Below, piece by piece: positions 258 to 12,537 of a DNA stretch of 17,487 bases. Origin of the DNA: Octopus sinensis (lineage: Eukaryota); the NCBI RefSeq assembly GCF_006345805.1, contig NW_021824812.1, forward strand, positions 1 through 17,487. Reading direction: 5' to 3'. The notes under the pieces are model-generated. The model was not told the DNA's origin, did not search any database, and saw only the letters and a program-made list of their open reading frames with translations. Each line of letters starts with the position of its first letter. Position 1 is the stretch's first letter. The translations under genes and the position numbers were made by a program.

Positions 258-288
<31 letters not shown>

Positions 289-375
289 ATTATTCGAGAC
301 AAAACCACTATATTTGCAAAACAACAAGGAAAGACTTAAGTAATACATAAAATTTTAATAAAGTCAAAAAAACCG

Positions 376-417
376 CCACTACAATCGTTCTTGTCTTGAT
401 CGACAATCTTCAGGTGG
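376..417 (-). ncRNA. Mirror copy of hammerhead-like motif (degenerate, one A of GAAA missing)
   Basis: Minus strand reads CCAC CUGAAGA UUGUC GAUCAA GACAA GAA C GAUU GUA GUGG. Confidence 0.45.
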
Positions 418-471
418 ACTTCCAATAATTCAGTGTCAAATTACTCATATTTGACACTGAATTATTGGAGT

Positions 472-516
472 CCACCTGAAGATTGTCGATCAAGACAAGA
501 AAAGATTGTTTAGTGG
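472..516 (+). ncRNA. Minimal type I hammerhead ribozyme-like motif
   Basis: CCAC CUGAAGA UUGUC-GAUCAA-GACAA GAAA AG-AUUG-UU UA GUGG: stem I CCAC/GUGG, intact CUGANGA and GAAA boxes, 5-bp stem II (closing pair U-A instead of the usual G-C), weak stem III, UUA triplet. Confidence 0.65.
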
Positions 517-680
517 CGGTTTTTTTGACTATTTATTAAAATTTTATGTATTAATGAAGTCTTTCCTTGTTTGTTTTGCAAAATAGTGGTTTTGTCTCGA
601 ATATATTTTATAATATTTTAATATAAAATCGATTTAATCCTAATTTTTTCCCTGTAAATTTGGATTTATTCCCTAATATT

Positions 681-717
<37 letters not shown>

Positions 718-748: not shown

Positions 749-896
749 GATGGGTTCTTTCAGTTTCCACGTACTAAATCCACTCACAAGGCTTTGGTCA
801 GCAGAAGACACTTGCCCAAGATGCCACGCAGTGGGACTGAACCCGGAACCATGTGGTTGGTTAGCAAGCTACTTACCACACAGCCACTCCTGCGCC
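749..896 (-). mobile_element. SINE family A, 5' half
   Basis: Reverse complement of the head ggcgcaggagtggctgtgtggtaagtagcttgc...ggttccgggttcagtcccactgcgtggc seen at 15050. Confidence 0.9.
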
Positions 897-948
897 TATA
901 TATATTATATTTATATATGAATATATATTCATACACACATTAGGTGCA

Positions 949-1017
949 GGTGCAGGTATGGTTGTGTGGAAAGAAGTTTGCTTCCCAACCAGATGGTTCT
1001 GGGTTCAGTCCCACTGC
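949..1017 (+). mobile_element. SINE family A, tRNA-head fragment
   Basis: ggtgcaggtatggttgtgtgg...ctgggttcagtcccactgc matches the family A head. Confidence 0.8.
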
Positions 1018-1535
1018 TTACCTCTTCCTGTCTCTTGTCTGGATAGTTGACATTCTCAATTGCTTTGTCTTCTTAAGATTATTTTGATCATCCATAACAT
1101 CTGCAATTCTGACTGTAATCCTATCTTCTGCTCTTCTCTCTCTGCTTTTTCTCTCCCCCCCCTTTTCCTTTCATCTTACGTTGGAGACATTCTTTCCTCT
1201 TCCTCTTATCCTGGCTCTTAAGATTTCATTTCAAAAATCATTTATTGATATACATTTTCAAGCCGAATCCAAGTTTGTAATTCATTTATTTCAGAAAGAT
1301 TTTATAAAAATCTTACAGCGATTTAACGTTTGATCAATTTTACCCAATCTGAAAATAGGATTTGTGCATAATAGTTGTGATAAAATTAAAATAAACATTA
1401 GAAGACAAAGTTTTTAACAAAATGAAAGCAATGCGTGAGAGATAATACATATAAGTAGAGAGAGGGTGATAAAAAGTTGGGTAAATATATTGAGAGGGAG
1501 AGATTTATGAAGACTGATATAGAATTATATATAGT

Positions 1536-3535: not shown

Positions 3536-3818
3536 GAGAACATTTTTAATAGTTCCTTTAAGACTTGCTTCCGGGTCACAAACGGAGATGAACCTATCTC
3601 ATTATCACTGGGGACAAAGTCCCCAGACTGAGCGTAGAGATTAATGATTTGAGGAATCGTATCAAACCTATCAGCTGCCTCCAGTTGATGCAATGATGCC
3701 ATTTGGCGGCGCTGGGAGTTGTTGGTAGGTATCTTCGTCATAGTACAGACTGATGCAAGTGGCACTTCAGTGTTAACTAAATAGGGATTACTCTAAAGGA
3801 ATTTCTTTCTCTTTTATA

Positions 3819-8838: not shown

Positions 8839-8856
8839 TATATATATATATATATA

Positions 8857-9265
8857 TAGAAAAAAACACCTTTTTATCAATTCAAAATTAACTTTTATTT
8901 AAAATGGCGGTGCCCCAGCATTGCCACAGCTTGTGAGCTGAAACTAGATAAATAAAAAAATAAATTAAATTACACCATCTAGAAAATTACATATAATAGA
9001 AGTAGTAAAATTATATATGTTTTTATTTTTTTTTTTTGCAATTTACTTAATCATTGATATTTTATTGTTATTTTAATTTTAATACTTCTATTATATGTAA
9101 TTTTCTAGATGGTGTCATTTAATTGTTCATTTTGAATTGATAGAAGGTGTTTTTTTTCTAATTTTTTATGTATATATATTATATTGCATGAAATTTGATT
9201 TAGTATTTCTAAATTGAATTTTTTTTCCCTGTAAGTTTGGATTTATATTCCCTCAAATAATAATT
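8857..9265 (+). mobile_element. Fold-back element 2 with unpaired 3' tail shared with element 1, flanked by (TA)n
   Basis: Arms 8857-9013 (interrupted by a ~70-bp insert at 8893-8962) and 9074-9160 are reverse complements; tail 9217-9253 aatttttttt ccctgtaagtttggatttatattccct matches 642-674. Confidence 0.7.
8906..8962 (+). mobile_element. Short retroposon 3' tail inserted in the left arm of fold-back 2
   Basis: ggcggtgccccagcattgccacagcttgtgagctgaaac plus A-rich tail; absent from the mirror arm. Confidence 0.75.
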
Positions 9266-9278
9266 ATATATATATATA

Positions 9279-9498: not shown

Positions 9499-10396
9499 TG
9501 CTTACAGCTTAGTTTTTTTTCTTGGGGCTGGCCGAGTTGGAGCAAATATCAGAATTGAACAGCCAAAATTTGCTATGATGATTCGGTGTCTGACTGAAGA
9601 TTGAAGGCTTCGAATGATTGTCTGTGTTCCGTGTTCGTCCTTCCTGTATTTCACGTTCATTATATATAAAAACATTCATTCTTATATTATTGCGGCGTTA
9701 CGTGCACCCCCCGTTTGTTTGTCCAATTTTAAACCCTGCACGACTTCTATACACACTGTCTTTTACTACCCGCCATTGCTTCTTCACCAAACTTTTTTGG
9801 CGCCCTCCGATTCTTCCCCTCTCTTCCTCCCATCCTCCTCCCCTCTTCCTCCCATCCTCCTTAATCCCTTCTTTCTCCTTCTCTCTTGGTCACTGATTCT
9901 GTCCCCTGCCTTCCACCCTCTTTGATTCCCTCTCTCTCTGTCTCTCTTCTCTCTCTCCTGACCTGCTGCTTCTTCAACCATTCTGTTGGCCTTCGTATCT
10001 CGACCAACATGTGTCCCCGCTACCGAAACGGTAATTATTCTTTACGCCAGCTGCTATGTTGTTGTTTTGTCTCATTTGGTCTAAAGTCGTATGACAACCA
10101 CCGTTATATACATTTTGTTTTTTCATTACTGTTTTCATTTCGTTTTCGTCTCTTGTATTCACATCCGTCTTGTGCGTTCACATTCCTGTCTTCTACCAAG
10201 AAATCTAATGCTTACAGCTTAGTTTTTTTTTTCTTGGGGCTGGCCGAGTTGGAGCAAATATCAGAATTGAACAGCCGAAATTTGCTATGATGATTCGGTG
10301 TCTGACTGAAGATTGAAGGCTTCGAATGATTTGTCTGTGTTCCGTGTTCGTCCCTTCCTGTATTTCACGTTCATTATATATAAAAACATTCATTCT
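9496..10396. repeat. ~900-bp element with ~190-bp near-identical direct repeats (9496-9682, 10206-10396), unclassified
   Basis: Both copies read taatgcttacagcttag...ggggctggccgagttggagc...aaaacattcattct; the interior contains a pyrimidine-rich tract at ~9805-9965. Confidence 0.85.
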
Positions 10397-10403
10397 CATT
10401 ATA

Positions 10404-10442
<39 letters not shown>

Positions 10443-10456
10443 TACATATATATATA

Positions 10457-10735
10457 TATATAATTAAATATAATTAAGGGGTAAGCAACAAGTTGCTTCA
10501 CCACATACCGAAAATTTAGAAATAGCAGCCAAAGACAGCCCATTCCTTTTTACTACTTTGGCTGCTATTTCTAAATTTTCGGTATGTGGTGAAGCAACTT
10601 GTTGCTTAACCCTTAATTATATTTAATTATATGTAAAAGTTTCTACCGATAATGCTTCTCTTTCCATACCAAAACTACTTGGTAAAATTTATTAATTATT
10701 AAATTAATAATTCTTTACCCTATATCTGTAATAAT
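10457..10735 (+). mobile_element. Fold-back element 4: ~77-bp near-perfect inverted arms plus unpaired tail, between (TA)n tracts
   Basis: 10457-10534 vs 10556-10632 (21-nt loop); tail 10633-10735; no hammerhead core in the retained part. Confidence 0.65.
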
Positions 10736-10741
10736 ATATAT

Positions 10742-11052
10742 ATCACCATGATCACCGTGACCGACCAGGCTATCAGATGTTACTATACATCGCTGGTCAC
10801 AATGCGCTTCGCATTGTTTTTAGCCTCAACTGACGCCACCCCGCTGGCTAAGTGAGCAGGCCAACAGCAGAAAGTGTGAGAGAAAGTTGTGGTGAAAGAG
10901 TACAACAGGGGTTGCCACCACTCCCCTGCTGGAGCCTCATGGAGCTTTAGGTGTTTTCGCTCAATAAACACTCACAACGCCCGGTCTGGGAATGAAAACC
11001 GCGATCCTACAACCACGAGTCCACTGCCTAACCACTGGACCATTGTGCCTCC
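10742..11052 (-). mobile_element. SINE family B, full length
   Basis: Reverse complement collinear with 1536-1838. Confidence 0.92.
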
Positions 11053-11081
11053 ACAATAATACATATATATACATATATATA

Positions 11082-11123
<42 letters not shown>

Positions 11124-11488
11124 CGTATTTTGGGATGGTAATTTTTTTCTTTTTGCCAAATAAACACACGCACTATATTTTTTTTTCTCTCACATATTAC
11201 TGTTCTTAATTTATTATTTTGACTCATGTCCATTGTCCAGAAATCTTTTGTTACATATCTTTGACCGCTTCAGCGATACTTTTCATTTTCATGCATGATC
11301 TTGCTCCACTCATACCATTCTGTTCTTCGAAGACGTGTATCCTTATGTGTATATATATGTATATATGTGTGTGTGTTTGCATTGCAATTCTTAGCATTTA
11401 TGTATTAGCCTTTTGGGTACTTCACTGGCAGTATATTGGATAAATGATATCCCATAGTGGGTTACTCATAACCCCTATCTCACTTGTA

Positions 11489-11523
<35 letters not shown>

Positions 11524-11650
11524 ATATATATTATATATATATAGATGAGTGTTATTTTTACCTTGTTAACAATAACGGAAAAAAAAATAAATAGTTACCA
11601 GGGCAGCAAAAATATTTGATTACACCTGCGTTAACTCCATTTTTTTATTC

Positions 11651-11652
11651 AA

Positions 11653-11687
<35 letters not shown>

Positions 11688-11729
11688 GTATATGTGTGTG
11701 TAAATTCATAGATATATATTTATATTCAC

Positions 11730-11770
<41 letters not shown>

Positions 11771-11848
11771 TGTTTATATATACATACTTATATATATATA
11801 CATGTTTATATATACATACTTATATATACATACTTTTATATATATATA
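11651..11848. repeat. Interrupted (TA)n/(TG)n microsatellite
   Basis: Direct reading. Confidence 0.9.
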
Positions 11849-11940
11849 TTGCTCCAGTCCACTCAGCTGGCAAAAATGAGTTATCTTGTGATAGACCAGT
11901 GTTCCATACAGAGGAACCAGGAAACTGGTTCAATGAGTCT
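11849..11940 (+). mobile_element. SINE family D, internal fragment
   Basis: ttgctccagtccactcagctgg...cagaggaaccaggaaactgg matches the reverse complement of ~8210-8323. Confidence 0.75.
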
Positions 11941-12016
11941 CTTTCTCTATATATGTGAGTGTGTGTGTGTGTGTGTGTGTATGTATATGTTTATGTACAT
12001 GTATGTATACATTTCT

Positions 12017-12180
12017 GGATGGTTGGTGTTTGGAAGACCATCCAGCTGTAAAAATCCTGATAAAGCAATCACAGAAGTTTGGTGCAGGCTTCTGCCTGGC
12101 TGGTTCCTGTCAAACTGTCCCACCCATACCATCATAGAAGGCAGATGGTAAATGATGATGATGATGATGATGATGATGAT
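12017..12180 (+). mobile_element. Diverged retroposon 3' end with (GAT)n tail
   Basis: ggttggtgtttggaagaccatccagctgtaaaaa...ctgtcccacccatacca...taaa(tga)n; homologous to ~4690-4847. Confidence 0.75.
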
Positions 12181-12354
12181 AGGTTTAACGAAAGTGCTCA
12201 CGCACTAGAAAAAAAATTCTTCTCAAAAAAGAGGTTAGTAAGTTCCTCATAAAAAAATTCATAACATTTTTTTAAAAACATCACCTTTACACTTCAAAAA
12301 ACTCATAGGCTTTCAGATATATATATACACACACAACACATAATATAGGCTTTT

Positions 12355-12537
12355 ATCTATAGATATATTATATATATATATATAGTATATGAGATACTAT
12401 ATATACTAGATATATAATATAGATATATATATAGATATATATAGATATATATATATGATCTTATATATATATATATGTATATAGATATATATATATATGT
12501 ATCTATATATATATATATATATAGTATATATATATTA

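What the first reader, a model, noticed from the sequence alone, without database searches (positions are those of the whole stretch)
291..684. Hammerhead-bearing fold-back element embedded in (TA)n
Seen: a ~310-bp hairpin whose arms each carry a hammerhead-like core. The more intact copy (472-516, +) is followed by an unpaired tail running into (TA)n. Comparing the two arms suggests an ancestral GAAAC-GAUU-GUA stem III. Established: Penelope-like elements carry minimal type I hammerheads in their terminal repeats and often have inverted 5' truncations. Inference: this is a truncated PLE terminus or a small non-autonomous ribozyme retroelement. In a read-through transcript the long hairpin would sequester the ribozyme, so cleavage could only be co-transcriptional or in monomeric units.
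Basis: partly seen in the sequence, partly recalled or inferred. Interest (0 to 1): 0.75.

Follow-up and report, generated by a model that had tools for sequence, protein, structure and literature searches.

The report
Hammerhead retroposon inserted as inverted dimer
This 313-base hairpin between two (TA)n tracts is a worn copy of a repeat found thousands of times in this animal genome: two head-to-head copies of a small non-coding unit carrying a minimal hammerhead ribozyme motif, most likely pasted in by the enzymes of Penelope-like retrotransposons, so it is a new example of a known kind rather than a new kind.

Summary
Window 291-603 is a 313-nt near-palindrome with a one-sided ~80-nt tail (604-683), flanked by (TA)n. 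Both arms carry a hammerhead core.

The element belongs to a large family: 7,122 copies of the tail motif and 2,545 of this hammerhead's 3' half, against 0 in reversed controls. Sister subfamilies keep the catalytic boxes, helix I and a palindromic helix III, but carry different, still base-paired helix II sequences.

The palindrome is most likely made at integration and not inherited. Paired hammerheads are always head-to-head (50 pairs against 0 tail-to-tail). Their junctions vary and are often asymmetric. Subfamily variants sit in both arms (23 of 23 pairs concordant). Monomers and 5'-truncated copies also exist.

These traits, plus the one-sided tail and the (TA)n at 3' ends, are the published hallmarks of Penelope-like element (PLE) insertions. 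Intact RT + GIY-YIG PLEs are abundant in this genome.

Three things remain open. The autonomous partner was not identified. Rfam models do not recognise the motif. Self-cleavage and expression are untested.

Verdict: a real, non-autonomous PLE-type hammerhead retroposon, and a new member of a known kind.

The parts
259..290 (.). Left (TA)n tract plus an A/T-rich junction abutting the 3' end of the inverted (left) arm
   Evidence: TA run at 259-282. The same (TA)n...TAAAATAT junction is seen in 17 other copies.
291..446 (-). Left arm: an inverted copy of the unit, read on the - strand from the centre to the arm end ...GTCTCGAATA. It has no tail.
   Evidence: Self-match of 291-603 at 91.6%. Alignment with 17 paralogs.
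376..417 (-). Hammerhead motif of the left arm. It is decayed: one A of the GAAA box is deleted.
   Evidence: The reverse complement reads CCAC CTGAAGA TTGTCGATCAAGACAA GAAC GATTGTA GTGG. Contigs of other runs put a T back after 387.
442..448 (.). Centre of the palindrome, the 5'-to-5' junction of the two arms. It is shortened relative to the fullest copies.
   Evidence: Centres differ from copy to copy while the arms are near-identical.
447..603 (+). Right arm: the unit in direct orientation, made of leader, hammerhead, spacer and a conserved 3' part
472..516 (+). Hammerhead motif of the right arm. The catalytic boxes CUGAAGA and GAAA are intact, helix I is CCAC/GUGG and helix II is UUGUC/GACAA. 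Helix III is altered (C15.2>A and a TT insertion), so the family's palindromic octamer is lost. The predicted cleavage site is after A512.
   Evidence: Descriptor hit. The family form is GAAAC GATT GTA. Self-duplex energy of the octamer region is -0.2 kcal/mol here against -5.8 for the family form.
604..683 (+). One-sided tail, conserved across subfamilies A, B, D and E
   Evidence: The 29-mer from the tail has 7,122 genome hits against 0 in the control. Exactly one tail in 16 of 18 (A), 16 of 21 (B) and 5 of 5 (D) fold-backs. Alignment A1.
684..713 (.). Right (TA)n tract abutting the tail
   Evidence: A (TA)n run starts 34-52 nt after the start of the 29-nt tail motif, that is just past the tail end, in 30 of 30 tail-ascertained loci.

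Best explanation
Window 291-683 is a decayed copy of a high-copy, non-coding repeat built from two head-to-head copies of a ~155-nt unit whose intact relatives carry a complete minimal type I hammerhead motif. It was most likely inserted by target-primed reverse transcription by Penelope-like element (PLE) enzymes acting in trans, with the palindrome likely formed anew at each integration.

Shown:
- The unit is leader (~30 nt), hammerhead (43 nt), spacer, a conserved ~75-nt 3' part, then optionally an ~80-nt tail, then (TA)n.
- Copies occur as monomers, as 5'-truncated monomers, joined to a 2.7-kb non-coding body, and as 5'-to-5' inverted dimers whose junction differs from copy to copy.

Inferred:
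- A ~245-nt RNA is reverse-transcribed from a (TA)n DNA end that pairs with the RNA's UA-rich 3' end.
- The other DNA end primes a second copy at the UA-rich stretch between arm end and tail, on the same RNA or a sister RNA.
- The two cDNAs, each truncated to its own extent, are joined head to head.
- The hammerhead would act as a dimer through its palindromic helix III (ACGAUCGU, ACGAUUGU or ACAAUUGU) on multimeric or read-through transcripts, cutting after GUA.
- In a transcript running through a whole fold-back it would be locked in the long hairpin.
- In this window's copy both motifs are damaged.
For: Family size and age:
- At least 1,435 first-look candidates for the hairpin. All 40 scored places (80 matches, both strands) cover the full length.
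- 2,545 exact hits for the 26-mer running from the helix II 3' strand to the helix I 3' strand, against 0 in the control.
- 7,122 tail motifs against 0.
- The 17 best copies differ from L007 at 0-3 sites confined to one arm each.

Hammerhead supported across subfamilies:
- Subfamilies A, D, E, B and B' share CCAC-CUGANGA, GAAAC-GAUY-GUA-GUG and the 3' part with tail. Helix II differs but stays paired: UUGUC/GACAA against AUGUC/GACAU, and AUGACUGC/GCAGGCAU against AUGACUGU/ACAGCCAU.
- On six representatives, 87.7% of cells pair against 81.7% in shuffles (3 of 500 shuffles reach it). Three pairs change on both sides. Sliding the register gives 17-62% pairing.
- A pattern that requires no pairing gives 111 hits against 3. 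Helix I, which lies outside that pattern, has 4 or more contiguous pairs in 24 of 30 loci against 1.3% in controls. Helix I sequences include GCAUU/AAUGC, UUUUAG/CUAAAA and GUCAC/GUGAU.

Helix III as a dimer helix:
- Among the first 100 family A hits, 71 are CGAUUG, 29 are CAAUUG, and none is the mismatched CAAUCG.
- Two 43-mers cofold at -21.4 kcal/mol with an 8-bp intermolecular helix III, against 2 x -6.5 for separate monomers.

Palindrome made at integration:
- 27 (family D) plus 23 (family A) close pairs are in (-,+) order and none in (+,-) among the 2 x 100 listed hits.
- Spacing varies: 37-129 nt for 26 of the 27 D pairs (one at 514), and 85-138 nt for 22 of the 23 A pairs (one at 284).
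- Junctions are often asymmetric, with either arm the longer.
- All 23 of 23 family A pairs are concordant for the CGAUUG/CAAUUG haplotype. About 6.6 discordant pairs would be expected if arms were paired at random.
- In family B, variants seen in 3 or more copies sit in both arms in 148 instances and in one arm in 28.
- Site 110 A>G is in both arms in 5 of 5 carriers.

Retroposon hallmarks:
- A monomer starting at the palindrome centre (L118), a shorter monomer (L123), and fold-backs truncated 3' of the hammerhead at different points.
- A 2.7-kb ORF-less long form with variable 5' ends that shares the same 3' module.

PLE context:
- At least 5,029 GIY-YIG candidates.
- ORFs of 775-883 aa. Two were scanned and match RVT_1 plus a C-terminal GIY-YIG domain. 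One RVT_1 score, 27.9, is below Pfam's 29.6 cut-off.
- Those PLEs end in (TA)n and carry a U3-A8 minimal hammerhead.
- Passages of PMC8557442 list pLTR hammerheads, an adjacent inverted 5'-truncated copy, a one-sided tail and a (TA)n bias as PLE traits.
- PMC4209133 reports dual min-HHRs 100-700 bp apart on opposite strands.
Against: - No Rfam hammerhead model matches the window, an intact copy, or subfamily B, even at E <= 10.
- Two features that PMC4209133 lists for PLE min-HHRs are absent in subfamilies A, B and D: a G10.1-C11.1 pair and an unpaired base between positions 9 and 10.1. These subfamilies have U-A or A-U there.
- No sequence similarity was found to the one autonomous PLE family whose 3' end I compared. 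The local alignment score was 27 against a shuffle mean of 26.6, and 232 of 500 shuffles scored at least as high.
- None of the 30 best GIY-YIG loci carries the arm end or the tail, apart from a nested copy. The link to PLEs therefore rests on architecture, not homology.
- The tail is ~80 nt, not the 30-40 nt described for PLEs.
- Relatives without a hammerhead that share the same tail also spread, so the ribozyme is not needed in every inserted copy.
- PMC4209133 (part 2) reports only low in vitro cleavage for such motifs.
- The 5' flanks of monomers L118 and L123 are not (TA)n. The (TA)n could therefore be made at, or carried by, the 3' end and need not mark a target preference.
- The covariation statistics rest on six representatives and are modest. 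For pairs with a change on both sides, 28 of 500 shuffles reach the observed count.
Confidence: 0.78

Rival explanations
1. The fold-back itself is the heritable transposing unit. A hairpin-forming master, moving as RNA or DNA, is copied as a whole, and arm identity is kept by gene conversion or by the youth of the family.
For: The commonest family A centre is shared by 7 of 18 copies. Spacing has a mode: 96 nt in 7 of 27 family D pairs, and 126-128 nt in 6 of 23 family A pairs. A local 3.1-unit tandem array shows that whole fold-backs can be duplicated.
Against: Junctions vary widely and are often asymmetric. Monomers and arms of unequal length exist. Variants that define subfamilies are found in both arms, 148 instances against 28, and 23 of 23 pairs are concordant. 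A unit copied as a whole would not mirror mutations from one arm to the other.
Confidence: 0.1
2. It is a non-LTR retrozyme. Tandem repeats are transcribed, cut by the hammerhead, circularised by a tRNA ligase and reverse-transcribed from the circle.
For: It has a type I hammerhead, is AT-rich, is a few hundred nt long and is non-coding. Head-to-tail pairs do occur: two (+,+) pairs at 406 and 456 nt in family D, one at 331 nt in family A, and the 476-bp array of 3.1 units. A 2026 preprint derives retrozymes from PLE pLTRs.
Against: Tandem arrangement is the exception, 3 head-to-tail pairs against 50 head-to-head pairs in the listed hits. Ends are defined, with a constant 3' end and variable 5' truncation. 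No run on record as RNA was on hand to look for circles.
Confidence: 0.07
3. It is a MITE-like fold-back DNA transposon that inserts at TA, and the hammerhead-like core is a chance match.
For: It is a near-perfect palindrome of ~313 bp with identical termini, flanked by TA-rich DNA, so a TA duplication could hide there. No Rfam hammerhead hit.
Against: Reversed-pattern controls give 0-3 hits against 111-2,545. Helix I and helix II are paired in unrelated families. The tail is one-sided. The centre varies, and there are monomers and 5' truncations. The same 3' module sits on a 2.7-kb element that has no inverted terminus.
Confidence: 0.03

Closest known systems
Minimal hammerheads of Penelope-like elements (min-HHRs; Cervera and De la Pena 2014, PMC4209133, parts 1-2 read)
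   Same: Type I topology. CUGANGA and GAAA boxes. Short helix I (4-5 bp). A small palindromic helix III that points to action as a dimer. Many sequence families per genome with compensatory changes. Mostly scattered single motifs, plus pairs 100-700 bp apart on opposite strands. A U3-A8 core variant is present in this genome's autonomous PLEs.
   Different: Subfamilies A, B and D lack the G10.1-C11.1 pair and the unpaired base before helix II. Helix II is only 5 bp in A and D. The motif sits in a short non-coding unit, not in the pLTR of a coding PLE.
Insertion architecture of EN+ PLEs (Craig, Yushenova, Rodriguez and Arkhipova 2021, PMC8557442, passages read)
   Same: 5' truncation, an adjacent inverted 5'-truncated copy giving inverted repeats, a tail at one end only, and association with (TA)n microsatellites.
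   Different: There is no RT/EN ORF. The tail is ~80 nt instead of 30-40 nt. No terminus homology to a coding PLE was found. The inverted dimer is the dominant form, not an occasional one: 15 of 30 tail-ascertained loci.
Non-LTR retrozymes of animals (Cervera and de la Pena 2020, PMC7229834, passages read; Li, Clavereau and Pollet 2026 preprint, abstract and section 14 read)
   Same: Small, AT-rich, non-autonomous repeats with type I hammerheads, thought to depend on PLEs. Helix III is 2 bp plus a tetraloop.
   Different: Retrozymes are head-to-tail tandem arrays expressed as circular RNAs. Here tandem pairs are rare, copies are dispersed with defined 3' ends, and circles are untested.
MITEs and fold-back DNA transposons
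   Same: A short, non-coding, palindromic, high-copy element in TA-rich DNA.
   Different: The centre varies, the arms are unequal, the tail is one-sided, and there are monomeric and 5'-truncated relatives. None of this fits cut-and-paste of a fixed unit.

Membership tests
Hammerhead ribozyme, type I, PLE-type minimal variant | Catalytic boxes CUGANGA and GAAA in the order helix I 5' strand, box 1, helix II, box 2, helix III, H17, helix I 3' strand | tested here: met
   Intact in the family. In the window, the + strand copy keeps both boxes and the - strand copy lacks one A of GAAA.
Hammerhead ribozyme, type I, PLE-type minimal variant | Helices I and II base-paired and kept by compensatory change | tested here: met
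   87.7% paired and 3 pairs changed on both sides, in six sequences only; helix I has 4 or more bp in 24 of 30 loci against 1.3% in controls. One search shows unrelated paired helix II sequences.
Hammerhead ribozyme, type I, PLE-type minimal variant | Small palindromic helix III (positions 15.2-16.2 and loop 3) | tested here: met
   ACGAUCGU, ACGAUUGU and ACAAUUGU. 0 of 100 are the mismatched form. An 8-bp dimer helix forms in cofold. The feature is lost in the window's own + strand copy.
Hammerhead ribozyme, type I, PLE-type minimal variant | G10.1-C11.1 pair and an unpaired base between 9 and 10.1 (features listed in PMC4209133) | tested here: not met
   U-A in subfamily A and A-U in B, D and E, with no bulge. 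Family C of the same genome has G-C.
Hammerhead ribozyme, type I, PLE-type minimal variant | Match to an Rfam hammerhead covariance model | tested here: not met
   No hammerhead hit at E <= 10 on the window, on L007 (541 nt and 65 nt stretches) or on L028.
Hammerhead ribozyme, type I, PLE-type minimal variant | Self-cleavage after H17 | not testable with these tools
   No run on record as RNA was listed, and only contigs could be laid.
Penelope-like element, non-autonomous derivative | RT + GIY-YIG ORF inside the element | tested here: not met
   The short units are non-coding. The 2.7-kb long form has no ORF of 150 aa or more. It is therefore non-autonomous at best.
Penelope-like element, non-autonomous derivative | Autonomous PLEs present in the same genome | tested here: met
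   At least 5,029 GIY-YIG candidates. ORFs of 775-883 aa. Two ORFs were scanned and match RVT_1 + GIY-YIG; one RVT_1 score is below Pfam's cut-off.
Penelope-like element, non-autonomous derivative | Variable 5' truncation with a constant 3' end | tested here: met
Penelope-like element, non-autonomous derivative | Inverted 5'-truncated copy joined head to head | tested here: met
   50 (-,+) pairs against 0 (+,-). Variable junctions.
Penelope-like element, non-autonomous derivative | Tail at one end only | tested here: met
   37 of 44 fold-backs have exactly one tail and 1 has two. The length is ~80 nt, not 30-40 nt.
Penelope-like element, non-autonomous derivative | Association with (TA)n | tested here: met
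   (TA)n follows the tail in 30 of 30 loci. The 5' flanks of two monomers are not (TA)n, so a target preference cannot be told apart from (TA)n added at the 3' end.
Penelope-like element, non-autonomous derivative | Sequence homology of the unit to the terminus (pLTR) of a coding PLE | tested here: not met
   One PLE family was compared: score 27 against a shuffle mean of 26.6. No arm-end or tail motif in 34 PLE loci apart from a nested copy. The long form also has no match. Other PLE families were not sampled.
Non-LTR retrozyme | Head-to-tail tandem arrays, each unit carrying a type I hammerhead | tested here: not met
   3 tandem pairs against 50 inverted pairs in 200 listed hits, and one 3.1-unit array.
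Non-LTR retrozyme | Unit-length circular RNA | not testable with these tools
   No run on record as RNA was listed.
MITE / fold-back DNA transposon | A fixed unit with terminal inverted repeats and a target-site duplication | tested here: not met
   Variable centres, unequal arms, a one-sided tail and monomers. A duplication cannot be read inside (TA)n.

The most novel reading that the evidence does not exclude
Each fold-back is a fossil of one integration in which both DNA ends of a break primed on the same RNA or on two sister RNAs. The hammerhead's palindromic helix III is what holds two template RNAs together near their 5' ends, as a dimer linkage. The 'ribozyme' would then serve Penelope-type retrotransposition as a pairing device and would explain why these elements so often land as head-to-head dimers joined about 30 nt upstream of the hammerhead.
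Probability: 0.1. Interest if true: 0.7.

Novelty: new member of a known kind. Interest (0 to 1): 0.4.

Why it matters
What hammerheads do in Penelope-like elements, and how these elements produce their odd tandem and inverted insertions, are both open questions in the papers I read (PMC4209133, PMC8557442).

This family is young, numerous and short. It gives thousands of natural integration products in which junction position, arm concordance, tail use and hammerhead state can all be read directly.

The counts here argue that the inverted dimer is made at integration from one template sequence. They also argue that helix III evolves as a self-complementary, dimer-forming helix. Both ideas could be tested at the bench with a 245-nt unit.

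For annotation, it matters that such fold-backs score as microRNA precursors in Rfam scans below the gathering score and are missed by the hammerhead models.

Tried and rejected
- Rfam scans. There was no hammerhead hit. The only matches were sub-threshold microRNA-hairpin hits caused by the palindrome, such as mir-580 at 50 bits against a gathering score of 83. I treat these as artefacts of any long hairpin.
- Expression. No RNA holder was listed; the kinds of all listed runs are guesses.
- Laying contigs of four runs. This gave only short repeat fragments. They confirm that the family consensus differs from the window copy (T put in after 387, 2 nt left out at 509, G599T). They say nothing on transcripts, ends or circles.
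- Autonomous partner. 34 PLE loci were scanned for the arm end, the tail and the helix III/I motif, and only a nested copy was found. Local alignment of one PLE 3' end with the arm was not above shuffles. The long form against PLE loci gave nothing meaningful. The partner remains unidentified.
- Simple snap-back model, in which the second arm copies the first cDNA, so the tail-bearing arm should always reach further into the centre. It does not fit. The tail arm is longer at 3 distinct centres, the other arm at 6, and they are equal at 2-3.
In 39 of 42 recovered family B arms, core sites deviate from the majority at 0.015 against 0.050 elsewhere (0.045 for non-CpG sites). The recovery pattern included the first box and the numbers are small. 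I give this little weight.
- Earlier notes of this scan. Nothing was found for this genome or this sequence.
- Literature searches. Judging by the titles and abstract starts listed, no paper describes this family. One cephalopod genome paper lists 235 Rfam 'hammerhead 1' hits without further analysis. I searched cephalopod terms on a recalled, untested impression that the window's SINE-like repeats look cephalopod. The organism was not determined.
Full report
THE OBSERVATION

Window 291-603 is a 313-nt near-palindrome centred near 445. Its two arms are 91.6% identical to each other. As RNA, 285-610 folds to -218.7 kcal/mol against -55.4 +/- 4.8 for shuffles.

Each arm holds a hammerhead-like core.

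- On the + strand, 472-516 reads CCAC CUGAAGA UUGUC-GAUCAA-GACAA GAAA, then a helix III region, A512 and GUGG.
- On the - strand, 376-417 is the same motif with one A of GAAA missing.
- An unpaired tail (604-683) follows the right arm only.
- (TA)n runs flank the whole element (259-282 and 684-713).

A LARGE, YOUNG FAMILY

The window's genome is 2.72 Gb in 13,516 contigs. It holds at least 1,435 first-look candidates for the hairpin. All 40 scored places (80 matches, both strands) cover it end to end.

Aligning 17 of them shows that the window copy is the odd one out. The exact 43-mer is present in 15 of 17 copies on one strand and 16 of 17 on the other.

Those 17 copies differ from copy L007 at 0-3 sites confined to one arm. 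The window copy differs at 9.

Homology between copies runs on through the tail to the (TA)n.

A 29-nt motif of the tail occurs 7,122 times, allowing one mismatch, against 0 for the reversed pattern. The 26-mer spanning the 3' half of this hammerhead occurs 2,545 times against 0.

IS THE HAMMERHEAD REAL OR A CHANCE MATCH?

Rfam says nothing. No hammerhead model reaches E <= 10 on the window, on an intact copy given as 541 or 65 bases, or on a sister subfamily. Membership by covariance model is therefore not met.

Comparison between subfamilies is nevertheless clear. A nested copy beside a PLE fragment (L028) turned out to be a sister subfamily, B, with at least 886 candidates at 80-94% identity. 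It has the same termini, tail and (TA)n flanks. It has a different hammerhead in both arms: CCAC CUGAUGA AUGACUGC...GCAGGCAU GAAAC GAUC GUA GUG.

Thirty loci taken in genome order by the tail motif add subfamilies D (CUGACGA AUGUC-AUUGAA-GACAU), E, F and B'. Family D alone has 353 hits against 0.

In an alignment of six representatives, several parts are conserved:

- the CUGANGA box;
- GAAAC-GAUY-GUA-GUG;
- helix I;
- the last ~75 nt and the tail.

The leader, the interior of helix II and the spacer have diverged, with insertions and deletions.

Counting pairs on that alignment gives the following.

- 87.7% of cells pair, against 81.7% in shuffles (3 of 500 shuffles reach it).
- Three pairs change on both sides: U-A to A-U at 10.1/11.1, and C-G to U-A at the eighth pair of helix II in B against B'.
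- Pairing falls to 17-62% when the register is slid.

With six sequences this is modest support.

Stronger support comes from a pattern that demands no pairing, CTGANGAS-N(8-38)-GAAACGATYGTA. It has 111 hits against 3 in the control. These fall into families with unrelated but complementary helix II sequences, such as GAUUUACU/AGUAAAUC, GAACAGUAAUG/CAUUACUGUUC and GCAGAAG/CUUCUGU.

In the 30 loci fetched from that search, helix I lies outside the pattern. It has 4 or more contiguous pairs in 24 of 30 loci, against 1.3% in controls. Helix I sequences differ by family: GCAUU/AAUGC, UUUUAG/CUAAAA and GUCAC/GUGAU. Twenty-five of the 30 belong to one family, so the number of independent families is small.

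My own structural descriptor finds 128 motifs in the 614 kb of fetched loci and none in the reversed sequences. That sample is enriched for these elements and contains overlapping loci.

HELIX III

The octamer from 15.1 to 16.1 takes three forms:

- ACGAUCGU in B and in many other families;
- ACGAUUGU in the main form of A;
- ACAAUUGU in a younger form of A.

Positions 3 and 6 of the octamer are too close to pair within one strand. They do pair when two copies form a duplex.

Among the first 100 family A hits in genome order, 71 are CGAUUG (G-U), 29 are CAAUUG (A-U), and none is CAAUCG, the A-C mismatch. CpG decay of CGAUCG should reach the mismatched form as easily as the G-U form.

Two 43-mers cofold at -21.4 kcal/mol with an 8-bp intermolecular helix III, against -13.0 for two separate monomers.

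This is the 'small and palindromic helix III' that Cervera and De la Pena describe for PLE hammerheads and take to mean action as a dimer (PMC4209133, parts 1-2 of 4 read).

The window's own + strand copy has lost this property. Its self-duplex energy is -0.2 kcal/mol against -5.8 for the family form.

WHAT THE PALINDROME IS

Four kinds of count say that it is made at integration from a single-arm template.

1. Orientation. Among the first 100 hits of the family D core there are 27 close (-,+) pairs, 2 (+,+) pairs and no (+,-) pair. Among the first 100 family A hits there are 23 (-,+) pairs within 300 nt and no (+,-) pair. The two hammerheads always have their 5' sides facing each other.

2. 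Junctions. Start-to-start spacing runs 37-129 nt for 26 of the 27 D pairs (one at 514), with a mode of 96 in 7 of 27. It runs 85-138 nt for 22 of the 23 A pairs (one at 284). Read base by base, the junctions are often asymmetric: one arm complete and the other cut back by 5-12 nt, and in one case a short stutter copy. In family A either arm can be the longer. The tail-bearing arm is longer at 3 distinct centres, the other arm at 6, and they are equal at 2-3. Other fold-backs with the same tail are cut back beyond the hammerhead, at a different point in each copy and each arm.

3. Concordance. All 23 family A pairs carry the same helix III haplotype in both arms (19 G/G, 4 A/A). About 6.6 discordant pairs would be expected from random pairing. 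In family A, a variant at site 110 is in both arms of all 5 carriers, and a variant seen only in L013 is also in both arms. In the older family B, variants seen in 3 or more of 21 copies are in both arms in 148 instances and in one arm in 28. The one-arm cases are mostly at CpG sites. The end-gap settings of that alignment were faulty, but the variant calls inside the aligned blocks are consistent.

4. Other forms. L118 is a monomer that starts at the palindrome centre. L123 starts a little further in. Four loci join the same hammerhead and 3' module to a different 5' body. That body is a 2.7-kb, GT-rich, ORF-less element with internal duplications and variable 5' ends, and it has at least 1,359 candidates at 98-99% identity.

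Of the 30 tail-ascertained loci, 15 are fold-backs of some size taken together. The other 15 are monomers or unresolved.

THE TAIL AND THE (TA)n

Fold-backs have exactly one tail in 16 of 18 (A), 16 of 21 (B, one of them with two tails) and 5 of 5 (D).

Some long-form copies end at the arm end, without a tail. Two 3' ends are therefore in use, both in UA-rich sequence.

A (TA)n run starts just past the tail in 30 of 30 loci. The 5' flanks of monomers L118 and L123, and of a truncated long form, are ordinary sequence. I therefore cannot separate a preference for (TA)n targets from (TA)n that is carried or made at the 3' end.

THE PENELOPE CONNECTION

Passages of Craig et al. 2021 (PMC8557442) list the following for EN+ PLEs:

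- hammerheads in the pLTRs;
- strong 5' truncation;
- often an inverted 5'-truncated copy at the 5' end;
- a 30-40-bp tail at one end only;
- a bias to microsatellites, with (TA)n named.

The 2014 paper also notes pairs of min-HHRs 100-700 bp apart on opposite strands in Schistosoma.

All of this matches, except that the tail here is ~80 nt.

The genome holds at least 5,029 GIY-YIG candidates. ORFs run to 775-883 aa. [quoted passage not shown] One RVT_1 score, 27.9, is below Pfam's 29.6 cut-off.

The 3' untranslated regions of those PLEs end in (TA)n. In 9 of 34 PLE loci they carry AUUU UUGAUAA GGUUC...GAACC GAAA CAUGU A AAAU. That is the U3-A8 core variant that the 2014 paper describes.

The link is by architecture only. 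That PLE's 3' end shows no similarity to the family A arm above shuffles. None of the PLE loci carries the arm end or the tail, apart from the nested copy. The autonomous partner is therefore unidentified.

HOW IT MOST LIKELY WORKS

Shown: the anatomy and the counts above.

Inferred, in order:

1. A ~245-nt RNA (leader, hammerhead, spacer, 3' part, tail, UA-rich end) is used in trans by a PLE RT/EN.
2. One DNA end of a break in or next to (TA)n pairs with the UA-rich 3' end and primes the tail-bearing arm.
3. The other DNA end primes at the UA-rich stretch between arm end and tail, on the same RNA or a sister RNA.
4. Both cDNAs run towards the 5' end, stop at their own point, and are joined head to head.

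The hammerhead would cut only when two copies in the same polarity can form the extended helix III, that is in multimeric or read-through transcripts or between two RNAs.

- In the monomer RNA the hammerhead fold costs 3.3 kcal/mol over the minimum free energy (-33.9 against -37.2).
- In a transcript through the whole fold-back it costs about 80 kcal/mol (-191.0 against -271.4).

Relatives with the same tail but no hammerhead also spread (window ~8840-9278). The motif is therefore not required in each inserted copy. The 2014 paper reports only weak in vitro cleavage for such motifs. What the hammerhead contributes remains open here, as it does in the literature.

RIVALS

- A MITE with a chance motif is contradicted by the controls, the one-sided tail, the variable centres and the monomers.
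- A retrozyme of the tandem, circular-RNA kind is unlikely. Head-to-tail pairs are rare: 3 against 50, plus one 3.1-unit array of 476 bp at 98% identity. Circles, however, could not be looked for.
- A fold-back that is copied as a whole would not mirror subfamily variants in both arms, nor vary at its centre.

NOVELTY AND VERDICT

The kind is known: minimal PLE-type hammerheads, PLE insertion architecture, and non-autonomous relatives.

I found no description of this family in four full-text searches, judging by the titles and abstract starts listed. One cephalopod genome paper merely lists Rfam hammerhead hits.

What is new here is limited to three points:

- a very abundant, young family in which the inverted dimer is the main product;
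- direct counts showing that the two arms come from one template sequence;
- a wobble-mediated compensatory path in the self-complementary helix III.

I rate it a new member of a known kind, of moderate interest. The window's own copy is a decayed example.

Noticed in passing
window 3550-3803 (+): RNase MRP RNA gene. Rfam RF00030, 93.9 bits against a gathering score of 50, E = 1.9e-25, full model length. It marks the window as nuclear DNA of a eukaryote.
   Followed up: no
window ~8840-9278 (+): A second, more distant fold-back between (TA)n runs. It has a related tail (CCCTGTAAGTTTGGATTTATATTC at 9227-9250) but no CUGANGA...GAAA motif: a hammerhead-less relative of the same tail family.
   Followed up: partly
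window 749-1020: Two inverted copies (828-914 / 931-1017, 78% complementary) of a tRNA-like SINE-type repeat next to the element. Similar sequence turns up in several fetched loci.
   Followed up: no
L051:5663 (+) and 8 other PLE loci (L027, L036, L039, L040, L041, L042, L049; L032 is a variant): The autonomous RT + GIY-YIG PLEs of this genome carry a minimal hammerhead with the U3-A8 core covariation (UUGAUAA...GAAA-CAUGU). It lies ~110 nt before a 3' end that runs into (TA)n.
   Followed up: partly
L147:321-2623; L156+L153 joined, 9805-12536: A ~2.7-kb GT-rich, ORF-less element with internal ~1.2-kb and ~0.4-kb duplications. It has at least 1,359 candidates at 98-99% identity and variable 5' ends, and it ends in the same hammerhead and 3' module (CAAUUG form). 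It looks very recently active.
   Followed up: partly
L084-L112 (family C), e.g. L085:1501-1541: Another abundant hammerhead retroposon: GCAUU CUGAAGA GAUUUACU...AGUAAAUC GAAAC GAUC GUA AAUGC. It is not a fold-back, shows variable 5' truncation, and ends ~130 nt after the motif in (TA)n, sometimes with its own ~100-nt tail.
   Followed up: partly
L053:8021 (+), 9098 (+) and one - strand motif: Further hammerhead types with 6-bp helix I and palindromic helix III (ACUCGAGU, ACAUAUGU) and a GUC cleavage triplet, lying near a second PLE family.
   Followed up: no
window 397-490; L007:1611-1710; L028:866-1054: The palindrome centre scores as many different microRNA precursor families in Rfam, below their gathering scores (for example mir-580 at 50-62 bits, MIR7533 at 92 bits). 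This is a likely source of false miRNA calls in such genomes.
   Followed up: no
L161 (G000:C1:20345214-20345370): A family D junction that contains an extra forward copy of the leader through the first bases of the hammerhead core before the full arm restarts. This looks like a template-jump stutter.
   Followed up: no
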